Positions 1,541 through 63,300 of a DNA stretch of 64,000 bases are shown one piece after another. Numbering within the stretch: position 1 is the stretch's first letter; the number at the start of each line of letters is the position of its first letter. The stretch covers positions 384,001-448,000 of the forward strand of contig AL929603.2 in the NCBI GenBank assembly GCA_000002445.1, given 5' to 3'. Under the pieces are notes generated by a model. It was not told where the DNA came from, did not search any database, and saw nothing but the letters and a program-made list of their open reading frames with translations. This DNA is from Trypanosoma brucei (lineage: Eukaryota). Made by a program: the position numbers and the translations under genes.

Positions 1541-1542
<2 letters not shown>

Positions 1543-1576
<34 letters not shown>
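1543..1576. repeat. (TA)n microsatellite, about 17 units
   Basis: Direct reading: atatatat...atg. Confidence 0.9.
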
Positions 1577-1579
<3 letters not shown>

Positions 1580-1633
1580 CGTATGTGTGTTTCTTGTTTT
1601 TTGTAGCTTTGGACGGTGTTGTACATTTTCCGG

Positions 1634-1675
1634 ATCTTTTTTTCTTTTTTCTTTTTGTTTTGTCCCCTCCCCTCC
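1634..1675 (+). promoter_or_regulatory. Polypyrimidine tract plus AG upstream of the kinase ATG (putative SL trans-splice acceptor signal)
   Basis: Direct reading: tctttttttcttttttctttttgttttgtcccctcccctcc, 35 nt before the ATG. In kinetoplastids, polyY tracts direct trans-splicing and the coupled upstream polyadenylation. Confidence 0.5.
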
Positions 1676-1709
1676 AAAAAAAAAAGAAAAATCGTGTTGG
1701 TGAATTACC

Positions 1710-4700
1710 ATGGTTTCTAAAGAGGAGAATGCGAACATCAAAAAGGGGGAGGAAAGCGACGCATATTTGCAGGAGCGTGGGATAAATAATATTATCGAGA
1801 ACCTTTTGCACGATATCACAAAATGTAGACCGGATGATCACTTGGAGTTTATGAAAGAGTGGTTGGCGACTCGAGAAACTGGAAAAAAAGAATTTTCTGA
1901 TGGGAATGAAGCGAAGCAGATGATCGAATCACCACTTGAACGCGAGGCGACAGTTGGGGAAACGAGTGAATTCATTTCGGAAACAGTTCCCGAATTTGCC
2001 TTTTTCCAACCCGTGAAGAAACCATCAACGGTGTCGTGGGCGCTGGGTGCACGCGGTGTTGACAGCAGTCGTGCATTATTTACCTCCTCCAGAAAATCTC
2101 CGCAACCAATCGACTCGGTTAACACCACATCATCATCTTCAGGCAGCTCGGCACTTCAAAACAATTTAAGTGTTGCTGCTCAAGGCGTTTCAATGTGGGT
2201 CCCTTCCGCTGCTCCTCTTAAGGCATCGCCAGCAATTCCATCCAATCCATTACCTTTATCACCCACAACATCAGAAGGGCTCGTGAGTTGTGGAGAGCTG
2301 CCGTCGTCAGTGAAAAAAATAATAGAAGGAGTGCGGGGACTGTCGCCAGCCGACCACACAGCAGTAATAGCGTTTATTGACGGTTTGGCTAACAGAGCAG
2401 CAACCACACGATTAGGAAGGAGAAAGTTGTCAAATACGCGGGGATCATTCGGGGTTAATTTCAACGTTGATAGTTGTGGTCCCACCATGAGCGAGGGAGC
2501 CGTGCCACCATGTATTAGTTTGTTAGTGGATGATGACGGTAATGTGGGAGGGGAACGTAAACTCTCTTCGGTTCAATTACAACAATTAGTTGGCGATGCC
2601 TTAACAACAAGCATGATTGCAACTGGGGAAATATTCATGGAGGAGGAAAGAGCGGGTCAGTTGTCGGCCTCCACCACCCAAGGGGCGAGCACATTAGGAA
2701 GGAGGGTGAAAAAAGGAAGTAACTTGCAATTGGCACGTTTTACCGATTGTTTTTCCATGAGTGATCAGATTCTTCCTGGTTCGAACGGCGGCGTCGGCAG
2801 CGGCTCGGGTCCCAATGACGGAGCAACGGATTTGTCGCAAATGTTTTCGAGTGTTGATGAGTTTGCTGCCGTTCCAGTTAGTTTTATTCAACAATATATG
2901 CAACACAGTCGGCTCTCCTCAACCGTTAGTAGGGTTGATAGCGAGTACTCTTCGGGGGCGACCGTCAGCAGTGAGGATGAGGTAAGTGTGTTGCGTAAAG
3001 CTTTTCGGGCATGTAAGCGCTTCTCCGACTATAGCGAAACAGAAATAGAGGTACTCGCTCGTAATGCGCAAAGGTTGGAACTGCTTGCTGGTCACACATG
3101 TAACTTCAAGGACTCCATTTTCTACGTGCATAGTGGTTTGCTCCGCGTAGAGAACAATGAAGGTGTTCTTCGTGAACTTCCGGCAGGAACCTTCCTTGAT
3201 GCTCAATCCTGCGAGCAGCTTAATGATGCTAGGGAGCCGCTCGAGGTGCGTGCAGTATCTGATGCACTAGTTTTGATGTTGAAGGACGAGGCATTGGGAA
3301 CCATTCAGGAGAACGAAAAAAAACTGAAAAAACGGATGTTCGTAAGATGCCTGCAGAAGTCACCGCTTTTTGCAACAGTCCCGCTGAAACTTCTGAAAAA
3401 CATAGCCAATTATATGCATGTGCGAACGGTGGTCCAGGGAAAGGTATTGTTACGGAAAGGAGAGCATGTGGATTGGCTTTCAGTAGTTATCAGTGGCACG
3501 GTTAGTAGAGTAGTAGCCGGTGGCAATGGGAATCATGAAGTATTGCCGCAGAATAAGCAGAAAGGTGGCCCATCATCCTGTGCTGCTCCGTACATTTTAC
3601 CACCCGAATCCCAGAGCGGATTTGAGTTTGGTGAGCTTGAACTTCTGTTTAACTCGCCGATGCTTACGGATGTTGTTGCAACGACACCGGTAACTCTGGC
3701 ACGAGTTTGCACAGCATTTGTACACTCACTGCTACCCCACCAAATAATCAACGATATGAAATACGCTGTTGCTACCAATCCATCAGCTGGACCTCTTTTG
3801 ACCATAGCACCGGATGCAGTTCGTCACTCAGTTAAGATGTTTATGGAGCATTACTGTCAGTCAAAACGGTTGGGTGGAAGCCGACTGCGCAAAAGAATTA
3901 GTGTTAGCTCAACCGGGACAAATTCTACAAGAGGATTTGCAGATAGCGTCAGATGTGGAGTACTCGCATCCGGAGCCAAAGCGAGTGGCGGAGCAAACAA
4001 TCTCAAAGTGAGTTCGGCGGGAGAGATTGTGTATGCTGGAAAATGTAATTATTACCGCTTTCCTATAGCTGCTCTTGGGTTGGGGAACACAGTAGTGGTT
4101 GCCGTTGTATCGGATGGTACAATTATCCGCTGGAATGATAGCGCCGAGCGCATCACGGGGTTTTCGAGGCAGCAAGTGCTTGGGCACAGCGTCTTCTCTT
4201 CACTCACTACCGATTCTGCCCGGCGCTCCATGCGTGAGCAGTTGAAACTCGTGCGAAACGTTGCTGGGAACTGGAACCAGTACGTCAGTGCGGGTCTTTC
4301 TTCTCCACAAGTGTATCGTTTTCGTCAGGCGTCTGGAACACACTCCGTTGGGTTACTTTTGAGTGTTATTCCTTCTTCTGCGGGGTCCAATGAAGATGTT
4401 TTGTTACTTGTCGGGCGTGAAGCGGATAACAATGCCATGACAAGTTACGTTGAGGATACCACCCGGTGGTTGAATGACGTTCTGCGGCCGCAGCTGTCGG
4501 CGTTCCGTAAACGTGTGTGTGAATATGAAGAAAGGAAGTGGAATATTACTTTGGAGGAAGGCGCAAAGCTTCATGGCTATGTGGAGGCGTGTAACCAACT
4601 TATGGACCGTTACATGCGCCTTGCTAACCTAAACAAACATTCAGTAGATGCTCTGTGGAAACCGGTGCGGATGCAAAATGTGTTACGACAGTTTCTGCAG

Positions 4701-6938
4701 GAGGTGACACCTCATGTACAGCGGGCTGGGAACAAGCTTACCACAGACGTTGTGGCAGGGCCCAAGGGCGAGGTATTTCTTCATGTGGAATACGTGCTGG
4801 ATGTACTGCGTGGAATGGTACTTGATGCTAACAAGAATAGACCCAACTATCATATGCATATCGTTGTTGAGGCTGTTTTGCCCACCACTATGCATCAGGA
4901 TAGTACAACAATGCCCTGCCAGGGTGAAAAGTCCACTTCCTGTGACTTGGCATTTCACTCCGTCTTGGATCAATCGCGAGTGAGTCTCGACACACCCCAC
5001 TGCACAACATCGCAAATAACCGCGAGTGAAGACAGCATTCGACAACGCTCTGCTCACTCTCCCCGGCAATTAAGTAAATGGCCCTCATATATGCAGCTTA
5101 TTCGGTTTATATTTACGATTAGCGAAAGTGAGTCCGGCCTTTCGATGGCGAATGATAACACCAGTGGTGGGGCAGCTACCACCCCAAGTGGTGAAGTCCC
5201 GCGTAGCAGCAAAATTCATCATAGTTTTTATGCAGGAAAGGAATGTGGAGACCTTGTTGCTGCGATGGGAGGTGAGGTTTTTTCCGAGCAACGTGGAATG
5301 AACGGTTCGGGTCATTGTGTTACGGTAGAACTACCGCTATTACCGACGCCTTGGGAAGAGGAGGACGACGAAGATGAGGCACCTACATCTTCTACTACAG
5401 GACCGCCATTTGCTGTTATTCTTGCTGACAAGAATGAGAAGGAGCGCAACAGTGTCTGTAAATTGTTGTGGGCACGTCGGCACCCTGTTTTTTCTGTATC
5501 GTCATTGTCGGAAGTGATGATGAGGATTGAAAGCCCGGACATTGGTCTTCTCATTATAGATCCGTGTCATTTAGATATGACAGAGGGGGAAAGCAAGACA
5601 TTTGCCAAAGCTCCCTACCCATTCAACATGGAACATGGGGGAAATCATTTCGTTGTCCTTATTTACACCGAAGACTTCGACGACTGGAGGGTGCAAAAAA
5701 TGAAGAAGTGCAGTCACGTGATTGAGTTGCCCAAGCCAGCAACTACTTCACTGCTTCACTCCACTTTGTATGAAGCGGAGCGTATGGTTATTCGTGTGCG
5801 AGAGTACGAGGAGCGTGTGGCTCAAATGAGGTCTGCCTTTCGTGAGTTCCAAGCTGAGAGGTATGAAATGGGTAAAGTATTGGGCAGAGGATCGTATGGT
5901 GAGGTTTATGAAGTCGTTGATCGACTCACAGGTGGAAAGTTAGCCGTAAAGCGCATGACTCTTAGCGATGGTTTATTGGCTGCAGATGTTGCTGAGGAAT
6001 TTCTGTCTGTGACATCTATGCGGCATAAAAACATGATTCATTACTTCTATTGTGAGCAAGAGAGTGAGACAGTGCTGCGGTTATATATGGAGTTGGCATC
6101 TGGTGGGACTCTTAAAGATAAGATCCGTCAACATGGTGGACCGCTTCCGCTCCCAACTGTTGTGCAATACCTTGAGGATCTTTGTGACGGACTCGCTTAT
6201 ATCCACTCCAATTTGTTCGTGCATGGGGATATTAAAACTGCGAATGCGCTAGTTGATCAATATGGTCGTGTTAAAATTGGTGATTTTGGTACCGCAAAGC
6301 GTCTCAAACGAAAATCGGAAAAACTTTACAAATTTGTCGGAACCCCGCGTTTTATGGCACCCGAGCTCATTAACGCGGACGCCACACAGGGACATGGCTA
6401 CGATCAAAAGGGAGATATTTGGTCACTTGGATGTGTTGCTTTGGAGTTAGCGACGGGGAAACCACCATTTTGGCATATTGAAGAGGCACAAGGTATAGGT
6501 ATATTCAACTTCCTGATTAATTTGAAGGAAACACCAGATTTGTCGATAATCGAACATAGCGATCCTGACTTTTATGCATTTGTGAGGAGGTGCCTCCATG
6601 TTGATCCCAAGGAGCGACCAACAGCGCAGGAGTTATTGACAAGTAATCTCTTTCAGCGTGCGGGGACGAGTGTGAGGGATATGAGGTTGGCGCAGCAAAT
6701 ACAAGCTGCAACGAAGTTACATGAATATGCGGCGCTTAAGGAAGACAATAGTGACGATGAGAATGACGATGACGATGACGATGAAGATGATGATGATGAC
6801 GATATGTTCGTGGAGTGTGATTTTCCGTTAGTGTTCTCTGGAGTTGGCACATTTCCAAATGGCGACCAAAATGTTGCGACGAGTAACCGTGGCAATATTG
6901 ATAACGAAAAGAAAGGAACTGCAAAATTGAGTGGGTGA
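1710..6938 (+). CDS. Multidomain Ser/Thr protein kinase: RIIa-like N-terminus, two cNMP-binding-like domains, PAS domain, receiver(CheY)-like segment, C-terminal STE/MAP3K-like kinase domain, poly-Asp/Glu tail
   Basis: 1742-aa ORF starting at an ATG. The N-terminal YLQERGINNIIENLL...HLEFMKEWL resembles the RIIa docking/dimerisation motif. The cNMP-binding signature FGELELLFNSPMLTDVVATT is present, and a second cNMP-like block lies upstream. PAS-like segment: TIIRWNDSAERITGFSRQQVLGHSVF. Receiver-like segment: FAVILADKNE...IGLLIIDPCHLDMTEG...VVLIYTED. Kinase motifs: LGRGSYGEVYEV, AVKRM, HGDIKTANALV, DFG, GTPRFMAPE, DIWSLGCV. Acidic C-terminal tail: DDENDDDDDDEDDDDDD. Confidence 0.85.
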   Translation: MVSKEENANIKKGEESDAYLQERGINNIIENLLHDITKCRPDDHLEFMKEWLATRETGKKEFSDGNEAKQMIESPLEREATVGETSEFISETVPEFAFFQPVKKPSTVSWALGARGVDSSRALFTSSRKSPQPIDSVNTTSSSSGSSALQNNLSVAAQGVSMWVPSAAPLKASPAIPSNPLPLSPTTSEGLVSCGELPSSVKKIIEGVRGLSPADHTAVIAFIDGLANRAATTRLGRRKLSNTRGSFGVNFNVDSCGPTMSEGAVPPCISLLVDDDGNVGGERKLSSVQLQQLVGDALTTSMIATGEIFMEEERAGQLSASTTQGASTLGRRVKKGSNLQLARFTDCFSMSDQILPGSNGGVGSGSGPNDGATDLSQMFSSVDEFAAVPVSFIQQYMQHSRLSSTVSRVDSEYSSGATVSSEDEVSVLRKAFRACKRFSDYSETEIEVLARNAQRLELLAGHTCNFKDSIFYVHSGLLRVENNEGVLRELPAGTFLDAQSCEQLNDAREPLEVRAVSDALVLMLKDEALGTIQENEKKLKKRMFVRCLQKSPLFATVPLKLLKNIANYMHVRTVVQGKVLLRKGEHVDWLSVVISGTVSRVVAGGNGNHEVLPQNKQKGGPSSCAAPYILPPESQSGFEFGELELLFNSPMLTDVVATTPVTLARVCTAFVHSLLPHQIINDMKYAVATNPSAGPLLTIAPDAVRHSVKMFMEHYCQSKRLGGSRLRKRISVSSTGTNSTRGFADSVRCGVLASGAKASGGANNLKVSSAGEIVYAGKCNYYRFPIAALGLGNTVVVAVVSDGTIIRWNDSAERITGFSRQQVLGHSVFSSLTTDSARRSMREQLKLVRNVAGNWNQYVSAGLSSPQVYRFRQASGTHSVGLLLSVIPSSAGSNEDVLLLVGREADNNAMTSYVEDTTRWLNDVLRPQLSAFRKRVCEYEERKWNITLEEGAKLHGYVEACNQLMDRYMRLANLNKHSVDALWKPVRMQNVLRQFLQEVTPHVQRAGNKLTTDVVAGPKGEVFLHVEYVLDVLRGMVLDANKNRPNYHMHIVVEAVLPTTMHQDSTTMPCQGEKSTSCDLAFHSVLDQSRVSLDTPHCTTSQITASEDSIRQRSAHSPRQLSKWPSYMQLIRFIFTISESESGLSMANDNTSGGAATTPSGEVPRSSKIHHSFYAGKECGDLVAAMGGEVFSEQRGMNGSGHCVTVELPLLPTPWEEEDDEDEAPTSSTTGPPFAVILADKNEKERNSVCKLLWARRHPVFSVSSLSEVMMRIESPDIGLLIIDPCHLDMTEGESKTFAKAPYPFNMEHGGNHFVVLIYTEDFDDWRVQKMKKCSHVIELPKPATTSLLHSTLYEAERMVIRVREYEERVAQMRSAFREFQAERYEMGKVLGRGSYGEVYEVVDRLTGGKLAVKRMTLSDGLLAADVAEEFLSVTSMRHKNMIHYFYCEQESETVLRLYMELASGGTLKDKIRQHGGPLPLPTVVQYLEDLCDGLAYIHSNLFVHGDIKTANALVDQYGRVKIGDFGTAKRLKRKSEKLYKFVGTPRFMAPELINADATQGHGYDQKGDIWSLGCVALELATGKPPFWHIEEAQGIGIFNFLINLKETPDLSIIEHSDPDFYAFVRRCLHVDPKERPTAQELLTSNLFQRAGTSVRDMRLAQQIQAATKLHEYAALKEDNSDDENDDDDDDEDDDDDDMFVECDFPLVFSGVGTFPNGDQNVATSNRGNIDNEKKGTAKLSG

Positions 6939-6974
6939 AATGGACGATATCGTATGACTTGGTGTACATAAATA

Positions 6975-6980
<6 letters not shown>

Positions 6981-7006
<26 letters not shown>

Positions 7007-7030
7007 GCGTGTGTGTGTTTGTGTCGTTTC
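6981..7030. repeat. Compound (TA)13-(GT)n microsatellite just downstream of the kinase stop codon
   Basis: Direct reading: atatatatatatatatatatatatatgcgtgtgtgtgtttgtgtcg. Confidence 0.9.
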
Positions 7031-7370
7031 TGTCTTTAGGGGTCCCGCAATGAACGAGGGAAATTTTAGCAACATGTCCTCATGTTTTTTTTTATTATTT
7101 GACTCTGATAATTGTGAAAAGATGCAACCGCGGAAGCGGCGCAACTTGTGCTTTACTTTTTTTAATTCTCCCCTCCTTTGTCTTTCCTCAATTTTTTTTG
7201 TTTATTTATTTAATAACTTATTTACTTGTTTGGGCTTTTATGCAGGGCAATGGTGGAGCAAACATTGAATAAAAAGTAATTGTTAATTAGTCAAATGAGG
7301 CACGCGTATGTACATTTGTGTTTTTATATATTATGAAGGAGTAATATGTTGCTTAGAGAGAAAAAAAAAA

Positions 7371-7388
7371 AGAGAGAGAGAGAGAGAG
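7371..7388. repeat. (GA)9 microsatellite preceded by A11
   Basis: Direct reading: aaaaaaaaaaagagagagagagagagagg. Confidence 0.85.
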
Positions 7389-8423
7389 GCCTCTTACATG
7401 CAGGTTCCAAGCAAATTAAAAAGATTTTCCACATATGAAAAAAGAAAAAAGAAAAAAGAAAGAAAGGAGAAAACTTCGCAGTTATGCGTAGGTGGTATAA
7501 TTTATTTACGTGAGTGCGTGGGGAAAGCGGAGGGGGGGGAAGGGAAAATAATAAAAAGAATGAAGTTTTTTTTTTAGCTTTTGTCTTTTTTCCCCCGTTA
7601 TCGTTTAGTTATTTACGGGATTGAGCGATTACATTTTCCTAGTTGCGCTCGCTTACACAAATAAATGAAGGGATGTAAAACAAAACAAAACAAAAAAGGA
7701 AAAATAATAACAAAAAAATAGAATAGTAGAGGAAGTCAAACATGTGGTGGATGGTTATGCGGTGTCTTTTTGTTTTTAATTTTTACCTACACGGTGGTTA
7801 TTATAAGTTTTTTCGTTTGCTTTGTTGAACCCCATGTGAAATGATCGCAACATGCGGGCGTAATATATAAATACATAAATATAAATAAAAAATAAATGAA
7901 AAAAAATGGTTTTGGAGTGTTTGCGTTTATATATAAAATGCGGATATCATATTGTCCGGAAACACAGAACTTTCTTTTATATATATATATATATCTTTTT
8001 TTTTTGTAAAGAAAAAAAATTGTATGGGAGCTAAAAGGAGAAGGTTGACCCCGTGAGATCGCGTTATTTTAAACATAAATGAGCGAAACCGGAATGAAAG
8101 AAACATGTGTAACAATAAATTATAATGAGCGGAGCTGAACACATCCAAAAGTCCTTTTTTTTAAAAAAAAGGGAGGGAAGAAGAGTAAATAAATAAAATT
8201 ATTTATTTATATAAAAAAATGTAAACATGTAAATAGATAGGAATAAAAGAGCGAAAAGGGAAGAATTAAGAGAAGACAGAACAGAACACATTTCGGGTTG
8301 TATATATTTTTTAGACGTGAGTTTCGCACCTTTGAAAGGTATTTTTAAATAGGAAATTGCTTTGTTTGTTTGTTTGTATGTTTTTTTTCTTTTTTTTAAT
8401 ACCCCCCTTTGAAAGAAACATAA

Positions 8424-8425
<2 letters not shown>

Positions 8426-8466
<41 letters not shown>
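8426..8466. repeat. (TA)n microsatellite, about 20 units
   Basis: Direct reading: atatatatatatatatatatatatatatatatatatatatatac. Confidence 0.9.
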
Positions 8467-8469
<3 letters not shown>

Positions 8470-10805
8470 GAAGAAGGAGAAGTTATATAGGTGAAAAATG
8501 TTATGAATTTATGTGCGGATATTTGGAAGAAAAAAAAAGAAAGAGCTGGGAACGAGCGAAAGCAATGCCCCCAAACGGTAACTTATAAAAGAAAGAAGAT
8601 GATTAACAACAAAAGAAAAAAACTGTAAGGGGGGGGGGTAAAGGCGAAATAGAATGGAAAAAGGAAAGGTGAAGAGAGGGGGGGGAAGTTATAATATCAT
8701 TTTTTTTTTTTGAAAAAAATTAAAACTGAAAAAGCATTAAGAAAAAAAAATCCTCTTTACGCACAGAGCGTACGTTTCTTTCCCTTTTTTTTATAAGAAA
8801 AAAAACTTATTTCCTCATTCCTTTTTTTTTTCTCTCTTCCGTTTCGTTTCACTGCCTTCTGTTTTCTGGGCTGAGGATTTGTAGTTGATTGCGACATGTA
8901 AATGAATATACATAACATACGCATACTAATGTAAATGTACGAATTTTAAAAAAATTATAATTTATCATTATTACATAACTAAGCACATGCTTAAATAAGA
9001 AATTTACGGGAGAAGAGTAATAAATGATGAGTTGATGAACCTCAAAAGAAAAATCAAATAAAATAAAGGGGCAGCGGTACGGTGATGTTTTTGCTAAATG
9101 CACTTATAAATAAAAATTTATATTCTTATTTACACTCATGTTTCCAGTTTTAGGCACTTATTTATGAACCTATGTATTTTTTGTTAGGTTTATTCATTCA
9201 CTTATCGAGTTACTAATTTCATTTTCATCATGATCATGACAATAACGGTTTTTAGGTGAATTTTTAAGATTATTTTTGTCGTTGCATATTTCGTTTGGAT
9301 TTTTTTTTACCGTTTTCCACTTTTTTCGCTTGTTTGTTTGTTGCTGTTCCTTTCGACTTTCTTACATTTGAGCAATTCATTAGAAAAAAAAAGGAAAATG
9401 GATCACTGTGGATTGCCAACCAGTGGGATGGGATTGCTACATAACTTTGCCCATTACTCCTTTCTTTTTCTTTTTTTTTTAACTCACTCCCTCCTTTCAT
9501 TTCCGCTCCAATTGTAATTACAACTGCGGTTCAGTACTTTTACTATTATTATTATTATTATTGCCTTTGAAGTTATACGTTCCAGTTTTTATACATGTAT
9601 TTATACTCAATACCTCCTTTTTTCCTTTTTTTTCTTTTGTGTGCGTGTTTTAGTTGTGCTAACTGTTATTAGTTGTGTCTCTTTCTTCTTGTCCTTTATT
9701 ACAACTGCTTCATCTTTTTCTCTTTTTGGCTTTCTCTCTCTCTCTTTCTCTTTCTTTCTTTGTTTTTGCCTCTTTAATTAGTTTTCTTTGTGTGTTAATG
9801 TTAGGTCTAGTCTATTATTATTATGTCATCTTATTAGTGCTGGTGCTATAAGTAACTGAGGATTCCTCACTTCATTTTCTCGCACTCATTCCATTTACCA
9901 CAGTTTTTAAACACACATGTTAATATTTACACACACACCTACAGAAGGAAAAGGAAGGAATAGGAAGGAAAGAGAGAAATGAAGGGGAAATTTGCACCCC
10001 GTAGCGATGCATATGTGAAATAATCGCATCATTAAAAATACAATAATAATAATTATTATTATTATTTTCACTATGAGGTATAAAAAATGCAGGATTACCG
10101 CTGTTGTTGTTTTACCTTTCTCAGGGGGTTTGTGCACTCGTCACTGCATTTATGAGTTGTAGTCCCATAAACCTCTTGTGAAGAGGTAATGCGACAGGAA
10201 CTAAGGGATACGAAAGAAATATTATCGATAGTGATGTTAATATTACTGTTATTACCCTTAAGTATATTTATTTATTTATTTAAAAAAAAGAAATGGTGAA
10301 CAAATGGCGGAAACTATTGAATAAGTTGTGATGTGCGGGATATTTGCTACTTAATTGTCTTTTATTTTCTAGTTGCATTGTCGTTACATTCCACGCATGG
10401 TTAAAAGGGCTCGGCAAATCTTCATATATATATATATATCATTCTGTCTTATGTGTTTCCCTTTTTTTCTTTTAATATTTTTGTGTCATAGTTTATTTTT
10501 TTTTCCCGTGCTTGTCTCCCTATTTTCATTTTTTTTTGTTTTGGTTCTGAGCGCACGTGGTGGTAGTTGAATGTTTTGTGTTCTTTCGAACTTTGTTGGG
10601 CCCTTCTTTCATTTCTTTGTAACTTCTTTTTTCTCAAAAAAAAAAATGTATGCATAATAATATAATACCCTGTGCTGAAGTGTAAGTAGGTTGCAACGAT
10701 TCACATGTTTCGACGTAGGAGAGCATTTCCACTCTTTTTTTTTCTCTCTTTTGCATATATAATTAACGGGATCACTCAAGGCTTTGCGTGAGAAGGTTAT
10801 TGAGA

Positions 10806-41786: not shown

Positions 41787-44240
<2,454 letters not shown>

Positions 44241-57388: not shown

Positions 57389-60300
57389 ATGTCGTATTAT
57401 AATAATCAACAACAGTCGCTCCCGTTTCAACCACTTCTTTCATCCAGAAGCTTCAGAACGGTACGCAGCCATGTAACGCGAACAAGTAACCTTCACTGTA
57501 GCACTGCAAGGGACGATGTTGATGCCACCTGCAGCGATACCACCATGAGTTTACACCATAGTGATACGAAAAGTTGTACCGATTTAGATTGTGCCACGAT
57601 GACCTCAAGGAGGAGACAACGATTGCCTTGCTTTGTTTGGAGCAAGAAAACTATTCCTCAACACCCCCAAGACTGGTCCAAGTCGAGACCAGATAGCTTC
57701 CGACATGATGATACCAGCCTTCTTAAGCAAGAGGGAGACTCGTTGCCCAGTGCACGAAGGGATGTACAACTACACTGCCAGGGACACCCAACACGGCCGC
57801 TCGTTTCCGCGCGGTCTGGGGGGAAAACGCGAACAAGGACTGTTTATAATAACAGTACCGTTACATGTACAACGTGCGCCACAGGTAGGAAGTTATCATA
57901 CCCACTATCAGTGGAAGCACATAATGATCACGCATTGTGCACGTGCGTCCCATGGCTCAGGTCTCTTGAGGCACTTCATCACCACGACGTAACCCCTGAA
58001 AAGGGCTGGGAATGCATATCCATTGAACGGGACGCGTTCAACCGCTCAACAGTTAGCTCCATTTCACCACCGTTATCACCGTATCTACCAGCGAAAACAC
58101 AGGGGAAAAAGGGACAAATGACAAATTTACTCTCACCACGAAGGTTGTACGCCGCCGTCAATAGCGCTAAAACCAAAAGCGACAGAGACGTATTTGCAGT
58201 TAGTGCCCGACCACATAAAACCAGTATGGGAAGCAGTGTAAACACAGCACGGCAGTATACAAAATATGTTAAAACAGCAAGAGAAGCATCACGAAAACCA
58301 CTTACTGTGCGCCATATCAATGACACAAATCCAATATATACCTTCTCAAATGAAAACAAGCAGAGGAATAAAGAAAATGCACTTCAGGATACGAAGAAGC
58401 CTGAAACAAAACCAGAAATAGAAATCTCCACAGCAACAACGGACGGACCTACGTACAACGAAAAAATAACAAAATGCAGAATGGAATCGCCTGCACTACG
58501 AAAAACAAAAAAAGAAGCTACGACCGAAAACCAAACTCAATGCACAAAACAGAAGGCACCAGCGACAAAAAATACATCTTCCATTCAAAAAAAATACGAA
58601 CTCAGTACCACACAAAAACAACAACTGGAAATAAAAAAAAAAGAAAAAAAGAAAAAAAAGAGTAGTATCAACACTAAAAACCCAATCACACAACAACAAA
58701 ACACAAAGCAACGTACATCGCTTACGCAGAACCTACAAAACAATTCAACATCAGAAAAGGAATTTAACCACATTCGAATAAACTCAACCAAAACCATCAT
58801 GGACGAGGCACCATGCGCCCCGGAGGACTTCCTAGCGGAGGAATCCCAGCAACACACTGCGAGGAGTGAAGCTGACATTGATGAAGAGCAGCAGCCGCAG
58901 GAGCAGCAAACCGAAGCCATCATGGACGAGGCACCATGCGCCCCGGAGGACTTCATAGCGGAGGAATCCCAGCAACACACTGCGAGGAGTGAAGCTGACA
59001 TTGATGAAGAGCAGCAGCCGCAGGAGCAGCAAACCGAAACCATCATGGACGAGGCACCATGCGCCCCGGAGGACTTCCTAGCGGAGGAATCCCAGCAACA
59101 CACTGCGAGGAGTGAAGCTGACATTGATGAAGAGCAGCAGCCGCAGGAGCAGCAAACCGAAACCATCATGGACGAGGCACCATGCGCCCCGGAGGACTTC
59201 CTAGCGGAGGAATCCCAGCAACACACTGCGAGGAGTGAAGCTGACATTGATGAAGAGCAGCAGCCGCAGGAGCAGCAAACCGAAACCATCATGGACGAGG
59301 CACCATGCGCCCCGGAGGACTTCCTAGCGGAGGAATCCCAGCAACACACTGCGAGGAGTGAAGCTGACATTGATGAAGAGCAGCAGCCGCAGGAGCAGCA
59401 AACCGAAACCATCATGGACGAGGCACCATGCGCCCCGGAGGACTTCCTAGCGGAGGAATCCCAGCAACACACTGCGAGGAGTGAAGCTGACATTGATGAA
59501 GAGCAGCAGCCGCAGGAGCAGCAAACCGAAACCATCATGGACGAGGCACCATGCGCCCCGGAGGACTTCCTAGCGGAGGAATCCCAGCAACACACTGCGA
59601 GGAGTGAAGCTGACATTGATGAAGAGCAGCAGCCGCAGGAGCAGCAAACCGAAGCCATCATGGACGAGGCACCATGCGCCCCGGAGGACTTCCTAGCGGA
59701 GGAATCCCAGCAACACACTGCGAGGAGTGAAGCTGACATTGATGAAGAGCAGCAGCCGCAGGAGCAGCAAACCGAAGCCATCATGGACGAGGCATCATGC
59801 GCCCCGGAGGACTTCATAGCGGAGGAATCCCAGCAACACACTGCGAGGAGTGAAGCTGACATTGATGAAGAGCAGCAGCCGCAGGAGCAGCAAACCGAAG
59901 CCATCATGGACGAGGCACCATGCGCCCCGGAGGACTTCCTAGCGGAGGAATCCCAGCAACACACTGCGAGGAGTGAAGCTGACATTGATGAAGAGCAGCA
60001 GCCGCAGGAGCAGCAAACCGAAGCCATCATGGACGAGGCACCATGCGCCCCGGAGGACTTCCTAGCGGAGGAATCCCAGCAACACACTGCGAGGAGTGAA
60101 GCTGACATTGATGAAGAGCAGCAGCCGCAGGAGCAGCAAACCGAAACCATCATGGACGAGGCACCATGCGCCCCGGAGGACTTCCTAGCGGAGGAATCCC
60201 AGCAACACACTGCGAGGAGTGAAGCTGACATTGATGAAGAGCAGCAGCCGCAGGAGCAGCAAACCGAAACCATCATGGACGAGGCACCATGCGCCCCGGA

Positions 60301-63300
60301 GGACTTCCTAGCGGAGGAATCCCAGCAACACACTGCGAGGAGTGAAGCTGACATTGATGAAGAGCAGCAGCCGCAGGAGCAGCAAACCGAAACCATCATG
60401 GACGAGGCACCATGCGCCCCGGAGGACTTCCTAGCGGAGGAATCCCAGCAACACACTGCGAGGAGTGAAGCTGACATTGATGAAGAGCAGCAGCCGCAGG
60501 AGCAGCAAACCGAAACCATCATGGACGAGGCACCATGCGCTCCGGAGGACTTCCTAGCGGAGGAATCCCAGCAACACACTGCGAGGAGTGAAGCTGACAT
60601 TGATGAAGAGCAGCAGCCGCAGGAGCAGCAAACCGAAACCATCATGGACGAGGCACCATGCGCCCCGGAGGACTTCCTAGCGGAGGAATCCCAGCAACAC
60701 ACTGCGAGGAGTGAAGCTGACATTGATGAAGAGCAGCAGCCGCAGGAGCAGCAAACCGAAACCATCATGGACGAGGCACCATGCGCTCCGGAGGACTTCC
60801 TAGCGGAGGAATCCCAGCAACACACTGCGAGGAGTGAAGCTGACATTGATGAAGAGCAGCAGCCGCAGGAGCAGCAAACCGAAACCATCATGGACGAGGC
60901 ACCATGCGCTCCGGAGGACTTCCTAGCGGAGGAATCCCAGCAACACACTGCGAGGAGTGAAGCTGACATTGATGAAGAGCAGCAGCCGCAGGAGCAGCAA
61001 ACCGAAACCATCATGGACGAGGCACCATGCGCTCCGGAGGACTTCATAGCGGAGGAATCCCAGCAACACACTGCGAGGAGTGAAGCTGACATTGATGAAG
61101 AGCAGCAGCCGCAGGAGCAGCAAACCGAAACCATCATGGACGAGGCACCATGCGCTCCGGAGGACTTCCTAGCGGAGGAATCCCAGCAACACACTGCGAG
61201 GAGTGAAGCTGACATTGATGAAGAGCAGCAGCCGCAGGAGCAGCAAACCGAAACCATCATGGACGAGGCACCATGCGCTCCGGAGGACTTCCTAGCGGAG
61301 GAATCCCAGCAACACACTGCGAGGAGTGAAGCTGACATTGACGAAGAGCAGCAGCCGCAGGAGCAGCAAACCGAAACCATCATGGACGAGGCACCATGCG
61401 CCCCGGAGGACTTCCTAGCGGAGGAATCCCAGCAACACACTGCGAGGAGTGAAGCTGACATTGATGAAGAGCAGCAGCCGCAGGAGCAGCAAACCGAAAC
61501 CATCATGGACGAGGCACCATGCGCCCCGGAGGACTTCCTAGCGGAGGAATCCCAGCAACACACTGCGAGGAGTGAAGCTGACATTGATGAAGAGCAGCAG
61601 CCGCAGGAGCAGCAAACCGAAACCATCATGGACGAGGCACCATGCGCCCCGGAGGACTTCCTAGCGGAGGAATCCCAGCAACACACTGCGAGGAGTGAAG
61701 CTGACATTGATGAAGAGCAGCAGCCGCAGGAGCAGCAAACCGAAACCATCATGGACGAGGCACCATGCGCTCCGGAGGACTTCCTAGCGGAGGAATCCCA
61801 GCAACACACTGCGAGGAGTGAAGCTGACATTGATGAAGAGCAGCAGCCGCAGGAGCAGCAAACCGAAACCATCATGGACGAGGCACCATGCGCTCCGGAG
61901 GACTTCCTAGCGGAGGAATCCCAGCAACACACTGCGAGGAGTGAAGCTGACATTGATGAAGAGCAGCAGCCGCAGGAGCAGCAAACCGAAACCATCATGG
62001 ACGAGGCACCATGCGCCCCGGAGGACTTCCTAGCGGAGGAATCCCAGCAACACACTGCGAGGAGTGAAGCTGACATTGATGAAGAGCAGCAGCCGCAGGA
62101 GCAGCAAACCGAAACCATCATGGACGAGGCACCATGCGCCCCGGAGGACTTCCTAGCGGAGGAATCCCAGCAACACACTGCGAGGAGTGAAGCTGACATT
62201 GATGAAGAGCAGCAGCCGCAGGAGCAGCAAACCGAAACCATCATGGACGAGGCACCATGCGCCCCGGAGGACTTCCTAGCGGAGGAATCCCAGCAACACA
62301 CTGCGAGGAGTGAAGCTGACATTGATGAAGAGCAGCAGCCGCAGGAGCAGCAAACCGAAACCATCATGGACGAGGCACCATGCGCCCCGGAGGACTTCCT
62401 AGCGGAGGAATCCCAGCAACACACTGCGAGGAGTGAAGCTGACATTGATGAAGAGCAGCAGCCGCAGGAGCAGCAAACCGAAGCCATCATGGACGAGGCA
62501 CCATGCGCCCCGGAGGACTTCATAGCGGAGGAATCCCAGCAACACACTGCGAGGAGTGAAGCTGACATTGATGAAGAGCAGCAGCCGCAGGAGCAGCAAA
62601 CCGAAACCATCATGGACGAGGCACCATGCGCCCCGGAGGACTTCCTAGCGGAGGAATCCCAGCAACACACTGCGAGGAGTGAAGCTGACATTGATGAAGA
62701 GCAGCAGCCGCAGGAGCAGCAAACCGAAACCATCATGGACGAGGCACCATGCGCCCCGGAGGACTTCCTAGCGGAGGAATCCCAGCAACACACTGCGAGA
62801 AGTGAAGCTGACATTGATGAAGAGCAGCAGCCGCAGGAGCAGCAAACCGAAACCATCATGGACGAGGCACCATGCGCCCCGGAGGACTTCCTAGCGGAGG
62901 AATCCCAGCAACACACTGCGAGAAGTGAAGCTGACATTGATGAAGAGCAGCAGCCGCAGGAGCAGCAAACCGAAACCATCATGGACGAGGCACCATGCGC
63001 CCCGGAGGACTTCCTAGCGGAGGAATCCCAGCAACACACTGCGAGGAGTGAAGCTGACATTGATGAAGAGCAGCAGCCGCAGGAGCAGCAAACCGAAACC
63101 ATCATGGACGAGGCACCATGCGCCCCGGAGGACTTCCTAGCGGAGGAATCCCAGCAACACACTGCGAGGAGTGAAGCTGACATTGATGAAGAGCAGCAGC
63201 CGCAGGAGCAGCAAACCGAAACCATCATGGACGAGGCACCATGCGCCCCGGAGGACTTCCTAGCGGAGGAATCCCAGCAACACACTGCGAGAAGTGAAGC

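What the first reader, a model, noticed from the sequence alone, without database searches (positions are those of the whole stretch)
1710..6938. Kinase fusing RIIa docking, tandem cNMP-binding, PAS and receiver-like domains to a MAP3K-like catalytic domain
The 1742-aa protein appears to join a PKA-regulatory-subunit-like module (RIIa plus two cyclic-nucleotide-binding domains) and PAS and CheY-like sensor domains to an STE-group kinase. The catalytic loop reads HGD instead of HRD. This is a regulatory-subunit/catalytic-subunit fusion rarely seen outside protists. It is interesting because cAMP signalling in trypanosomes is non-canonical. A 3.9-kb spacer follows the gene, consistent with a long, regulated 3' UTR.
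Basis: partly seen in the sequence, partly recalled or inferred. Interest (0 to 1): 0.6.

Follow-up and report, generated by a model that had tools for sequence, protein, structure and literature searches.

The report
Multi-sensor MAP3K-like kinase Tb927.1.1530
This is the annotated but uncharacterised Trypanosoma brucei kinase Tb927.1.1530, in which a decayed copy of a protein kinase A regulatory subunit and a dead bacterial-type histidine-kinase cassette sit in front of an intact MAP3K-like kinase domain; it is very unlikely to be a cAMP sensor.

Summary
The ORF is real (1710..6938, +, 1742 aa). It is Tb927.1.1530 on T. brucei TREU927 chromosome 1: the sequence is identical to XP_001218855.1, and a published phosphopeptide and published RNAi primers map to it.

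- An RI/RII-type docking helix pair is supported, but only at family-profile level.
- Two tandem CNB domains, a PAS domain, a receiver domain and an STE-group kinase with HGD are all supported.
Together these form a hybrid-histidine-kinase-like cassette.

The cAMP reading is not supported. Neither CNB domain has the phosphate-binding arginine, and CNB-A has lost its whole cassette. CNB-B reads GELELLFNSPMLT, the "ribose-binding cassette" of kinetoplastid PKAR, which binds nucleosides and not cAMP. [quoted passage not shown]

Bodo and environmental relatives keep an RI-type inhibitor site (RRIAISA), intact cassettes, capping tyrosines and ATP-lid motifs. The T. brucei copy has lost these, and the H-box histidine is absent family-wide. 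It keeps the receiver Asp/Thr/Lys and all kinase catalytic residues.

The cNMP+PAS+STE architecture was published for Leishmania in 2005, and an HK-cassette+kinase paralogue (DAK) in 2021. RNAi gave no fitness loss in bloodstream forms. Interest is moderate.

The parts
1710..6938 (+). Complete ORF of Tb927.1.1530 (1742 aa), an STE-group protein kinase
1761..1865 (+). RI/RIIa-type dimerisation/docking (D/D) helix-turn-helix motif, aa 18-52 (AYLQERGINNIIENLLHDITKCRPDDHLEFMKEWL)
   Evidence: Pfam RIIa is sub-threshold. The family profile hits the PKA RI-alpha D/D domain 2EZW at E = 8e-6. The motif is conserved as far as Bodo.
1866..2981 (+). Low-complexity linker, aa 53-424. It carries pSer321 (nt 2670-2672) and small conserved islands. 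The ancestral PKA inhibitor site is lost here (HSRLSSTVS, aa 399-407).
2982..3359 (+). CNB-A domain, aa ~425-550. The fold is kept, but the ligand cassette is degenerate (aa 493-516, GTFLDAQSCEQLNDAREPLEVRAV): no Gly-Glu and no aligned Arg.
3360..3884 (+). CNB-B domain plus C-terminal helices, aa ~551-725. The cassette F640-GELELLFNSPMLTD-654 is of the kinetoplastid PKAR ribose-binding type: E644 is present and Arg is replaced by M651. The capping and alpha-D tyrosines are lost (NPSAGPLLTI, aa 690-699).
4023..4421 (+). PAS domain, aa ~772-904
   Evidence: Pfam PAS_9/PAS above cut-off; AF2 model pLDDT 85-92; PDB profile hits to RpfR, phytochrome and ThkA PAS domains
4428..4640 (+). DHp-like two-helix hairpin, aa ~907-977. 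The H-box remnant is RWLNDVLRPQL (aa 919-929), with Asp923 where the phospho-acceptor His should be.
4656..5336 (+). Degenerate HATPase_c-like (CA) domain, aa ~983-1209, with two disordered insertions. The N-box Asn is replaced by D1039, and the G1 and G2 boxes are lost.
   Evidence: HATPase_c Pfam hits in 7 of 16 aligned relatives, best 7.6e-19; motif alignment; AF2 model plus Foldseek hits to PAS/LOV histidine kinases, E down to 3e-13
5412..5744 (+). Receiver (REC) domain, aa ~1235-1345. D1240, phospho-acceptor-position D1284 (IIDP), T1320 and K1342-P1343 are conserved.
5745..5861 (+). Long helical connector from the last REC helix into the kinase domain, aa ~1346-1384
   Evidence: AF2 helix 584-618 of the fragment; conserved in the family
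5862..6650 (+). Protein kinase domain, aa 1385-1647, STE group/MAP3K-like. All catalytic residues are present (G-loop 1392-1397, K1414, E1430, D1507, N1512, D1525, E1552). It is non-RD (H1505-G1506-D1507).
6753..6803 (+). Acidic Asp/Glu tract in the C-terminal tail (aa 1682-1698), encoded by a TGACGA-type repeat
6939..10805 (+). 3867-nt AT-rich intergenic spacer: 3' UTR of the kinase plus the pyrimidine-rich splice-acceptor region of the next gene. It contains no ORF of 90 aa or more and no Rfam family.

Best explanation
Tb927.1.1530 is a soluble, probably dimeric, catalytically competent non-RD STE-group (MAP3K-like) Ser/Thr kinase. Its 1380-aa N-terminal region is a chain of sensor and transmitter modules inherited from a kinetoplastid-wide family.

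The family architecture is: RI-type D/D domain, PKA inhibitor site, CNB-A, CNB-B (the two CNB domains most like kinetoplastid PKAR), PAS, DHp, HATPase-like CA, receiver, STE kinase.

In the T. brucei copy most ligand-binding and phosphotransfer chemistry has decayed:
- The inhibitor site is lost.
- The CNB-A cassette is lost.
- The CNB-B purine cap is lost.
- The H-box has no His.
- The ATP-lid G1 and G2 boxes are lost.

The folds, the CNB-B ribose-type cassette (GELEL, no Arg), the receiver Asp/Thr/Lys and the kinase active site are kept.

The most likely mode of action is inference, not shown. The D/D motif and the DHp hairpin hold two chains in parallel. Conformational changes in the sensor part (PAS and/or CNB-B, or phosphorylation of the linker, for example at Ser321) pass through the DHp/CA/REC pseudo-phosphorelay and the long REC-kinase helix. 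They set the activity of the paired kinase domains. Because these are non-RD kinases, they may not need activation-loop phosphorylation (textbook generalisation about non-RD kinases, not tested here).

It is not a cAMP/cGMP effector. If CNB-B still binds a small molecule, an uncharged riboside of the nucleoside type is more plausible than a cyclic nucleotide.
For: Shown by tools.
- ORF and identity.
- Kinase domain at 199 bits, with ASK1/MAP3K5, MST and MEKK2 as the best PDB matches. All catalytic residues are invariant across the seven aligned sequences.
- Non-RD (HCD/HGD/HSD) throughout the CNB-bearing family.
- CNB pair: Pfam 47.9 bits. The best PDB sequence hit for the T. brucei sequence alone is T. 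cruzi PKAR (E 2.3e-4). [quoted passage not shown] The AF2 model has pLDDT 83 and its top Foldseek hit is 6HYI.
- Cassette comparison with the published RBC-A GELELMYQTPTVA and RBC-B GELEFLNNHANVA.
- D/D motif.
- Inhibitor site RR[IAVN][AG][IV]SA in 16 relatives and absent from Trypanosoma.
- PAS.
- HK cassette: AF2 topology; Foldseek top hits to LOV-HK YF1, ThkA, ShkA, VicK, the phytochrome HK-related domain, RetS and DivL; HATPase_c in 7 of 16 and Response_reg in 2 of 16 aligned relatives; motif decay.
- No TM segment.

From the literature.
- Protein expressed and phosphorylated in bloodstream forms.
- Published precedent for PAS-DHp-CA-REC-ePK in the paralogue Tb927.9.3120/DAK, which also lacks the His and keeps the REC Asp.
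Against: - No experiment addresses ligand binding, dimerisation or activity of this protein.
- RNAi gave no loss of fitness in cultured bloodstream forms, so function is not demonstrated in that stage.
- The canonical ribose-binding Glu (E642) is replaced in T. vivax (L), T. conorhini (V) and T. rangeli (I). The capping tyrosines are missing in all Trypanosoma. CNB-B may therefore bind nothing.
- The AF2 models rest on shallow alignments (16 and 21 sequences), and inter-domain geometry is unreliable (pTM 0.52).
- The RIIa assignment is below Pfam's threshold for every single sequence tested.
Confidence: 0.6

Rival explanations
1. It is a cyclic-nucleotide-regulated kinase: cAMP or cGMP binds the tandem CNB domains and releases or activates the C-terminal kinase, as in PKG or PKA. 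This is the reading implied by the first reader.
For: Two CNB folds lie N-terminal to a kinase on one chain. T. brucei lacks a cAMP-dependent PKA, so effectors are being sought.
Against: The PBC consensus F-G-E-[LIV]-A-L-x(4)-[PV]-R-[ANQV]-A is violated at the Arg in both sites (M651 in B, none aligned in A). In site A it is also violated at Gly-Glu. Site B has Glu644 where mammals have Ala; in TbPKAR this Glu clashes with the cyclic phosphate, and mutating it together with restoring the Arg was needed to regain cNMP response. The nearest homologues are the cAMP-independent kinetoplastid PKARs.
Confidence: 0.05
2. It is a nucleoside-sensing MAP3K-like kinase. CNB-B (and CNB-A in relatives) binds inosine, guanosine or adenosine as kinetoplastid PKAR does, coupling purine nucleoside levels directly to an STE kinase.
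For: The CNB-B cassette GELELLFNSPMLT follows the PKAR ribose-binding cassette pattern: G-E-L-E, no Arg, and a hydrophobic residue after the Arg position. E644 is invariant in all 21 family members. The family consensus GELEFLFNHLTVADVVA is nearly identical to T. cruzi PKAR GELEFLNNHRTVADVVATT, and relatives keep the Y-x-x-Y of the capping/alpha-D region.
Against: In T. brucei and all other Trypanosoma orthologues the capping Tyr and alpha-D Tyr positions are non-aromatic (A, L). CNB-A is destroyed. E642 is lost in three sister species. In TbPKAR the alpha-D helix and pi-stacking contribute 80- to 120-fold in affinity. The idea may hold for Bodo-type relatives rather than for T. brucei.
Confidence: 0.15
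3. It is an alternative PKA regulatory/anchoring subunit. The R-like module binds a PKA catalytic subunit (or AKAP-like partners through the D/D domain), tethering PKA-C to an STE kinase.
For: The order of elements is that of a full R subunit: RI-type D/D motif, an RI-type pseudosubstrate RRIAISA about 30 residues upstream of CNB-A in 16 relatives, and tandem PKAR-like CNB domains. The predicted CNB pair superposes best (TM 0.57-0.62) on C-subunit-bound holoenzyme conformations.
Against: The inhibitor site is absent in T. brucei (HSRLSSTVSRVD, a single Arg) and in every Trypanosoma orthologue. The holoenzyme-like conformation may be an AlphaFold default. No interaction data exist.
Confidence: 0.08
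4. The upstream domains are evolutionary relics with no regulatory role, and the protein is simply a large constitutive (or phosphorylation-regulated) STE kinase.
For: There is widespread motif decay in the T. brucei copy. RNAi shows no fitness phenotype. Overall divergence between Trypanosoma species is high, at 38-42% identity.
Against: Domain order and fold-determining residues are conserved across the six Trypanosoma sequences and Bodo over the whole 1380 aa, including invariant E644, D1284, K1342 and many PAS/DHp positions. Relics without function would be expected to be deleted.
Confidence: 0.12

Closest known systems
LmjF15.1200 / LmxM.15.1200, the 'very large STE kinase' of Leishmania with two cNMP-binding domains and a PAS domain (Parsons et al. 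2005; Baker et al. as cited in PMC7618733)
   Same: Same colinear architecture of CNB-A, CNB-B, PAS and STE kinase. Large trypanosomatid-type proteins with this architecture (P0035-P0042, 2.3-4.5 kaa; taxon not given) are the sister clade of the Trypanosoma proteins in the kinase tree and share 50-58% kinase identity.
   Different: The T. brucei protein is much shorter (1742 aa) because it lacks the huge low-complexity inserts. Parsons 2005 stated that T. brucei has no orthologue, and a later review calls the Leishmania gene Leishmania-unique; the present data argue otherwise. I could not retrieve the LmjF15.1200 sequence itself, so equating it with the P0035-type proteins is an inference. Its deletion impairs sand-fly colonisation; no phenotype is known for Tb927.1.1530.
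Kinetoplastid PKA regulatory subunit (TbPKAR Tb927.11.4610; structures 6FLO, 6HYI), the nucleoside-binding, cAMP-independent R subunit
   Same: It is the closest solved relative of the CNB pair. Site B (and site A in relatives) has the same cassette signature: Glu replacing Ala, and no Arg.
   Different: TbPKAR has an LRR N-terminus instead of a D/D domain, an RRTTV substrate-type inhibitor site, and is a free subunit that binds PKAC. Tb927.1.1530 has a D/D motif and no inhibitor site, lacks the capping and alpha-D tyrosines, has a destroyed site A, and is covalently fused to other modules and an STE kinase.
DAK, 'dual ancestor kinase' Tb927.9.3120 (Jensen et al. 2021)
   Same: PAS, DHp, CA, REC and a eukaryotic protein kinase on one chain. 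The conserved His is missing and the receiver Asp is retained. It is conserved to Bodo. DAK-like relatives (P0079, P0092) were recovered by the same search.
   Different: DAK is about 1000 aa, has predicted transmembrane segments and localises to the ER. It has no D/D or CNB domains, and its relatives keep HRD and canonical G1/G2 boxes. Tb927.1.1530 has no TM segment.
cGMP-dependent protein kinase (PKG)
   Same: Tandem CNB domains N-terminal to a kinase domain in one polypeptide, with an N-terminal dimerisation element. PKGs are among the strong profile and fold hits.
   Different: PKG has an AGC kinase domain, canonical PBC arginines and an autoinhibitory sequence. It has no PAS or HK cassette.
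Plant phytochromes and other pseudo-histidine kinases (RetS, DivL)
   Same: PAS followed by a DHp/CA module that has lost His-kinase chemistry and serves as a structural or allosteric transmitter. They are the top Foldseek matches.
   Different: They have no CNB domains and no fused eukaryotic protein kinase domain, and they have different sensory inputs.

Membership tests
Eukaryotic protein kinase (Pkinase, PF00069) | Profile match above the gathering score, plus G-loop, VAIK Lys, alpha-C Glu, catalytic Asp, Asn, DFG and APE | tested here: met
   199.3 bits against 31.7. G1392/G1394/G1397, K1414, E1430, D1507, N1512, D1525 and E1552 are invariant in the seven aligned sequences.
RD kinases | Arg immediately before the catalytic Asp (HRD) | tested here: not met
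   H1505-G1506-D1507. The family is mostly HCD/HGD/HSD.
STE group / MAP3K (STE11-like) | Catalytic domain closest to MAP3K/STE kinases | tested here: met
   The best PDB matches are ASK1/MAP3K5 (E 4e-43), then MST3/4 and MEKK2. It is classified STE in the T. brucei phosphoproteome and kinome papers.
STE group / MAP3K (STE11-like) | Phosphorylates a MAP2K, so that it sits at the top of a MAPK cascade | not testable with these tools
   No substrate data. The kinome paper lists it as 'STE' without an STE11 sub-family label.
PKA regulatory subunit | N-terminal RIIa-type dimerisation/docking domain | tested here: inconclusive
   The single sequence is sub-threshold (12.4-12.9 bits against 22.4). 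The family profile hits the RI-alpha D/D domain at E = 8e-6.
PKA regulatory subunit | Inhibitor (pseudo)substrate site RRxA/S-hydrophobic upstream of CNB-A | tested here: not met
   Absent in T. brucei and the other Trypanosoma. Present as RR[IAVN][AG][IV]SA in Bodo and 15 other relatives.
PKA regulatory subunit | Two tandem CNB domains | tested here: met
   Pfam. AF2 pLDDT 83 and Foldseek top 50, of which about 40 are PKA R subunits and the rest PKG CNB regions.
Canonical cyclic-nucleotide-binding domain | Phosphate-binding cassette with Gly-Glu and the invariant Arg | tested here: not met
   Site A: FLDAQSCEQLNDAREPLEV. Site B: GELELLFNSPMLT, with Arg replaced by Met651.
Kinetoplastid PKAR-type ribose-binding cassette (nucleoside site) | Glu in place of the PBC Ala, non-Arg at the Arg position, Val-like next residue | tested here: met
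   Site B only: E644, M651, L652. Site A is not met in T. brucei but is met in Bodo-type relatives (GELELMY...CAAT).
Kinetoplastid PKAR-type ribose-binding cassette (nucleoside site) | Capping Tyr and alpha-D Tyr residues that stack on and seal the purine | tested here: not met
   NPSAGPLLTI in T. brucei against K-Y-E-H-Y-L in relatives and N-Y-E-Y-Y in TbPKAR.
Kinetoplastid PKAR-type ribose-binding cassette (nucleoside site) | Measured nucleoside binding | not testable with these tools
   Needs ITC or nanoDSF on recombinant protein.
PAS domain | Profile match above the gathering score and a PAS fold | tested here: met
   PAS_9 at 35.2 bits against 27, and PAS at 33.1 against 22.6. The model has pLDDT 85-92.
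Hybrid histidine kinase | DHp helical hairpin followed by a Bergerat-fold CA domain | tested here: met
   AF2 topology. Foldseek hits to PAS/LOV-HKs at E down to 3e-13 over ~450-480 columns. HATPase_c hits in 7 of 16 aligned relatives.
Hybrid histidine kinase | Phospho-acceptor His in the H-box | tested here: not met
   Asp923 in T. brucei. No conserved His anywhere in the family.
Hybrid histidine kinase | ATP-binding N, G1 and G2 boxes | tested here: not met
   D1039 at the N position, and G1/G2 unrecognisable in Trypanosoma. G1 (D-x-G-x-G) is present in about seven relatives, but a G2-like motif only in the DAK-like P0079 and P0162 and in P0060, for example P0079 DTGSGI...GFGLPK.
Hybrid histidine kinase | Receiver domain with acidic pocket, phospho-acceptor Asp, Thr/Ser and Lys | tested here: met
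   D1240, D1284, T1320 and K1342-P and a (beta-alpha)5 model. Whether it is phosphorylated is not testable here.
DAK (Tb927.9.3120) type | Transmembrane segments N-terminal to the PAS-HK cassette | tested here: not met
   The maximum 19-residue Kyte-Doolittle mean is 1.62, inside the PAS core, against 2.5-2.9 in DAK-like relatives.

The most novel reading that the evidence does not exclude
The CNB-PAS-HK-REC-STE kinase family, of which Tb927.1.1530 is the T. brucei member, may be a second kinetoplastid signalling protein, besides PKA, whose CNB domains sense purine nucleosides rather than cyclic nucleotides. It would have arisen by fusing a whole PKAR-like subunit to a MAP3K-like kinase. In basal members this subunit has an RI-type D/D domain, an RRIAISA pseudosubstrate and ribose-binding cassettes. 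The fusion would wire nucleoside signals, and possibly PKA-C binding, directly into a kinase cascade. In T. brucei a weakened site B may still do this.
Probability: 0.15. Interest if true: 0.75.

Novelty: new member of a known kind. Interest (0 to 1): 0.45.

Why it matters
Trypanosomes make cAMP, but their PKA ignores it and binds nucleosides instead, and the downstream wiring of both signals is an open problem. This work shows that a second protein family carries PKAR-type ribose-binding cassettes and is fused to an STE kinase through a pseudo two-component cassette. That gives a concrete candidate effector to test, best in Bodo- or Leishmania-type members where the pockets are intact. It also gives a natural series of progressive sensor decay in Trypanosoma. 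In addition, it corrects the literature statement that T. brucei lacks an orthologue of the Leishmania cNMP+PAS STE kinase, whose deletion impairs sand-fly colonisation. For T. brucei itself the gene is annotated, dispensable in cultured bloodstream forms and largely degenerate in its sensor chemistry, so the immediate impact is moderate.

Tried and rejected
1. All three homologous-protein searches returned only the query's own cluster plus unrelated kinases: full length, N-terminal 1380 aa and the orthologue alignment. Orthologues came only from the exhaustive representative search.
2. My first guess was that the gene was MEKK1 (Tb927.2.2720) of the quorum-sensing pathway. I rejected it: MEKK1 is a flagellar membrane protein on chromosome 2, whereas this gene is Tb927.1.1530.
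3. My second guess was DAK (Tb927.9.3120). I rejected it: in DAK the kinase domain is at aa 737-980 and there are TM segments.
4. A single-sequence PDB search of aa 891-1380 found nothing at E <= 10. The orthologue profile found only PAS hits and weak receiver hits, and no DHp/CA hits. The HK assignment therefore rests on the family alignment, Pfam hits in relatives and the predicted fold.
6. An Rfam scan of the flanks and spacer found nothing.
7. A look-up of the contig encoding relative P0045 gave no taxonomic information, so the taxonomic range of the environmental relatives is unknown.
8. The Paulinella hit P0034 matches only through PAS repeats and is not a family member.


Full report
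**Observation.** The window is a piece of Trypanosoma brucei brucei TREU927 chromosome 1. Ten proteins translated from it are exact matches to TREU927 GenBank/RefSeq entries on a 1,064,672-bp contig, including KREPB1/MP90 at 41787-44237. All credible genes lie on the + strand, as expected for a kinetoplastid polycistron.

The ORF 1710..6938 (+) is intact and encodes 1742 aa. It is XP_001218855.1/CAJ16132.1 'protein kinase, putative'. Two lines of evidence identify it as Tb927.1.1530:
- The bloodstream-form phosphopeptide AGQLSApSTTQGASTLGR (Ser321), reported for Tb927.1.1530, is aa 315-331 of this ORF.
- The kinome-screen RNAi primers for Tb927.1.1530 map to 4284-4303 (+) and 4667-4686 (-).

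**Domain inventory, N to C.**

(i) *D/D motif, aa 18-52.* AYLQERGINNIIENLLHDITKCRPDDHLEFMKEWL matches Pfam RIIa only below threshold (E about 0.1). The motif is conserved in all Trypanosoma orthologues, in Bodo saltans and in environmental relatives. A profile of 13 such N-termini hits the PKA RI-alpha dimerisation/docking domain (2EZW) at E = 8e-6, followed by RI-beta, RII-beta, SP17, FAP385 and DPY30. I accept an RI/RIIa-fold docking motif at family level.

(ii) *Linker, aa 53-424.* This is a low-complexity linker that carries pSer321.

(iii) *Tandem CNB domains, aa ~425-725.* Pfam cNMP_binding scores 47.9 bits against 27.5. An AlphaFold model built on a 21-sequence alignment has mean pLDDT 83. 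Of its top 50 Foldseek matches about 40 are PKA R subunits and the rest are PKG CNB regions, led by inosine-bound T. cruzi PKAR 6HYI.

(iv) *PAS, aa ~772-904.* Above Pfam cut-offs.

(v) *aa ~907-1209.* No profile recognises this region in the T. brucei sequence.

(vi) *Receiver-like region, aa ~1235-1345.*

(vii) *Kinase domain, aa 1385-1647.* It scores 199 bits. The best solved relatives are ASK1/MAP3K5, MST3/4 and MEKK2. All catalytic residues are present and invariant across the seven aligned sequences, six Trypanosoma and Bodo. H1505-G1506-D1507 replaces HRD.

(viii) *Acidic tail.*

An exhaustive HMMER search with aa 420-1380 found three kinds of relative:
- Full-length orthologues in T. 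vivax, T. congolense, T. rangeli, T. melophagium and T. conorhini (38-42% identity) and in Bodo saltans (30%).
- A clade of very large (2.3-4.5 kaa) proteins with the same colinear domains.
- About twenty more distant relatives, mostly JGI metagenome gene calls.

In a 16-sequence alignment of the PAS-to-kinase segment, 7 members hit Pfam HATPase_c (best E 7.6e-19) and 2 hit Response_reg.

The AlphaFold model of aa 763-1385 (pLDDT 71) shows, in order:
- a PAS domain;
- a two-helix hairpin;
- an alpha/beta domain with two disordered inserts;
- a (beta-alpha)5 domain whose last helix runs on towards the kinase.

Foldseek against the PDB returns only PAS/LOV histidine kinases and pseudo-histidine kinases at the top, with E down to 3e-13 over about 450-480 aligned columns. 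These include phytochrome HK-related domains, YF1 4GCZ, ThkA 3A0R, ShkA 6QRJ, VicK 4I5S, RetS and DivL.

So PAS to REC is a hybrid-histidine-kinase-like cassette. The same arrangement was published for the shorter, membrane-bound paralogue Tb927.9.3120 ('DAK').

Motif by motif:
- The H-box remnant RWLNDVLRPQL has Asp923 where the phospho-acceptor His belongs. No family member conserves a His there.
- The N-box Asn position is D1039.
- The G1 and G2 boxes are unrecognisable in Trypanosoma. Several relatives keep a G1 box (P0045 VVDTGPGIS), and the DAK-like P0079 keeps both G1 and G2 (SDTGSGIS...GFGLPK).
- The receiver keeps D1240, the phospho-acceptor-position D1284 (IIDP), T1320 and K1342-P1343.

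The T. brucei cassette is therefore a pseudo-phosphorelay: the folds are kept and the His-kinase chemistry is lost. There is no transmembrane segment.

**The CNB pockets.** The published PKA consensus is F-G-E-[LIV]-A-L-x(4)-[PV]-R-[ANQV]-A.
- CNB-A of Tb927.1.1530 reads GTFLDAQSCEQLNDAREPLEVRAV. Gly-Glu is gone and no Arg aligns. The cassette is equally scrambled in every Trypanosoma orthologue.
- CNB-B reads F-G-E-L-E-L-L-F-N-S-P-M-L-T-D. The Ala is replaced by Glu644 and the Arg by Met651.

[quoted passage not shown] There the Glu binds the ribose 3'/5' hydroxyls and clashes with a cyclic phosphate. Restoring the Arg and removing the Glu were needed to regain a cyclic-nucleotide response.

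The resemblance reflects homology and not chance:
- The T. brucei CNB pair alone has T. cruzi PKAR as its best PDB sequence hit (E 2.3e-4, spanning both domains).
[quoted passage not shown] It scores 176-180 bits on mammalian RI and 157 bits on Euglena PKAR.
- The family CNB-B consensus GELEFLFNHLTVADVVA is almost identical to T. cruzi PKAR GELEFLNNHRTVADVVATT.
- Relatives outside Trypanosoma also keep GELELMY...CAAT in site A and the Y-x-x-Y of the capping/alpha-D region.
- G641, E644, F647 and D654 are invariant in all 21 sequences.

The T. brucei protein has lost more than the Arg:
- The capping and alpha-D tyrosine positions read A and L (NPSAGPLLTI, aa 690-699). In TbPKAR those elements contribute about two orders of magnitude in affinity.
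- The canonical ribose Glu (E642) is replaced in T. vivax, T. conorhini and T. rangeli.

Whether site B still binds an uncharged riboside is open.

**A whole R subunit was fused.** About 30 residues upstream of CNB-A, Bodo and 15 other relatives carry RR[IAVN][AG][IV]SA, for example RRRIAISATP. This is the RI-type pseudosubstrate (mammalian RI-alpha RRGAISAE, from my own knowledge; TbPKAR has RRTTV).

With the RI-type D/D motif and two PKAR-like CNB domains, the ancestral N-terminal half is a complete PKA regulatory subunit. TbPKAR itself has an LRR N-terminus and no D/D domain. The inhibitor site is absent from all Trypanosoma orthologues (T. brucei HSRLSSTVSRVD).

**Relationships.** In a neighbour-joining tree of kinase domains the Trypanosoma proteins are sister to the large proteins P0035-P0042 (50-58% identity). 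Bodo's kinase domain failed the extraction filter and is not in the tree. The remaining CNB-bearing relatives branch further out, and the DAK-like proteins (TM, no CNB, HRD) are outside. Non-RD (HCD/HGD/HSD) is the family norm, so HGD is inherited and is not a T. brucei peculiarity.

Parsons et al. [quoted passage not shown] They said it is likely conserved in T. cruzi, 'no orthologue is present in T. brucei'. A 2022 review calls LmxM.15.1200 Leishmania-unique and reports that its deletion reduces sand-fly infection.

The search recovered only one such gene per Trypanosoma species, and the T. cruzi-clade proteins group with Tb927.1.1530. I therefore infer that Tb927.1.1530 is the missed, shortened and divergent orthologue. 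I could not obtain the LmjF15.1200 sequence to prove it.

**How it most likely works.** What is shown:
- an intact non-RD STE kinase domain;
- conserved folds for every upstream module;
- expression and phosphorylation in bloodstream forms.

What is inferred:
- The D/D motif and DHp hairpin make a parallel homodimer.
- The sensor end (PAS, possibly CNB-B, or linker phosphorylation) changes the packing of the DHp/CA/REC block.
- The long REC-to-kinase helix transmits this to the paired kinase domains.

This is how pseudo-histidine kinases such as phytochrome HKRD, DivL and RetS act as allosteric transmitters, which is an analogy from established knowledge. The AlphaFold CNB pair superposes best on C-subunit-bound, extended R-subunit conformations (TM 0.57-0.62 against 0.34-0.42 for ligand-bound forms). 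That may only be a modelling default.

**Function.** RNAi caused no loss of fitness in cultured bloodstream forms. The Leishmania relative's vector-stage phenotype suggests looking in insect stages.

**The spacer.** The segment 6939..10805 (3867 nt) is AT-rich (GC 27-34%) and has no ORF of 90 aa or more and no Rfam family. Its distal part is pyrimidine-rich on the + strand, with AT skew -0.2 to -0.33 at 9000-10000 and (TCTCTTTC)n at 9713-9761. This is typical of the trans-splicing signal of the next gene. The kinase 3' UTR could therefore be at most about 2-2.8 kb. Its real length and any regulatory role need RNA-end mapping.

**Verdict.** The architecture is richer than reported because it contains a full pseudo hybrid-HK cassette and has a complete R-subunit ancestry. 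The cAMP interpretation is not supported. The gene is annotated, and its family's unusual cNMP+PAS+STE combination and the HK-cassette+ePK combination are both already published. The new points are:
- the T. brucei orthology;
- the R-subunit completeness in basal relatives;
- the PKAR-type ribose-binding cassettes;
- the stepwise decay in Trypanosoma.

Interest is moderate.

Noticed in passing
window 58786-64000 (runs off the window end): There is a 123-bp tandem repeat of at least 42 copies at 99% identity. One + strand frame is open through it and encodes a 41-aa acidic repeat (TIMDEAPCAPEDFLAEESQQHTARSEADIDEEQQPQEQQTE). The 1793-aa minus-strand ORF 58585..63966 (Cys/Ser-rich) is probably a repeat artefact. 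The repeat also explains the AT skew of +0.49 there.
   Followed up: partly
window 1986-2981 (aa ~93-424 of the kinase): Small conserved islands lie in the otherwise disordered linker: PEFAFFQPV (aa ~94-102), LSPADHTAVIAFIDGL (aa ~211-226) and LQQLVGDALTTSMIA (aa ~291-305). The first and third are conserved among the Trypanosoma orthologues only. The second also has counterparts in Bodo and, by eye, in relatives P0045-P0047. Their function is unknown and they could be docking motifs.
   Followed up: no
protein P0171 (1787 aa), not in the window: This unrelated-architecture protein matches the CNB-pair profile five times in tandem (E 1e-19 to 1e-35 each). It is a chain of about ten CNB domains.
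   Followed up: no
window 1-1709: The upstream region has no ORF longer than 150 aa. It has a strongly pyrimidine-rich stretch (501-1000: GC skew -0.44, AT skew -0.41), an (AT)17 repeat at 1543-1576 and a poly-pyrimidine tract at ~1630-1680, just before the ATG at 1710. This suggests a very short 5' UTR.
   Followed up: no
window 10788-56790: The downstream polycistron, all on the + strand, includes a tubulin-like (Tubulin_3) protein, a tubulin-tyrosine ligase-like protein, an AAA ATPase, SCO1, a 1523-aa TruD-domain protein, a DEAD-box helicase, an ESCO-type acetyltransferase, a HEAT-repeat protein, Elf1-like, KREPB1/MP90, an AATF-like protein and a cyclophilin-type protein.
   Followed up: partly
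locus L001 / protein P0001 (Logan ERR7929157): The cluster representative P0001, assembled from a public sequencing run, differs from the TREU927 protein at a few residues (for example A68V and T344S), so it is a strain variant. Its 5304-bp contig ends in the TA/AT microsatellites flanking the gene.
   Followed up: no
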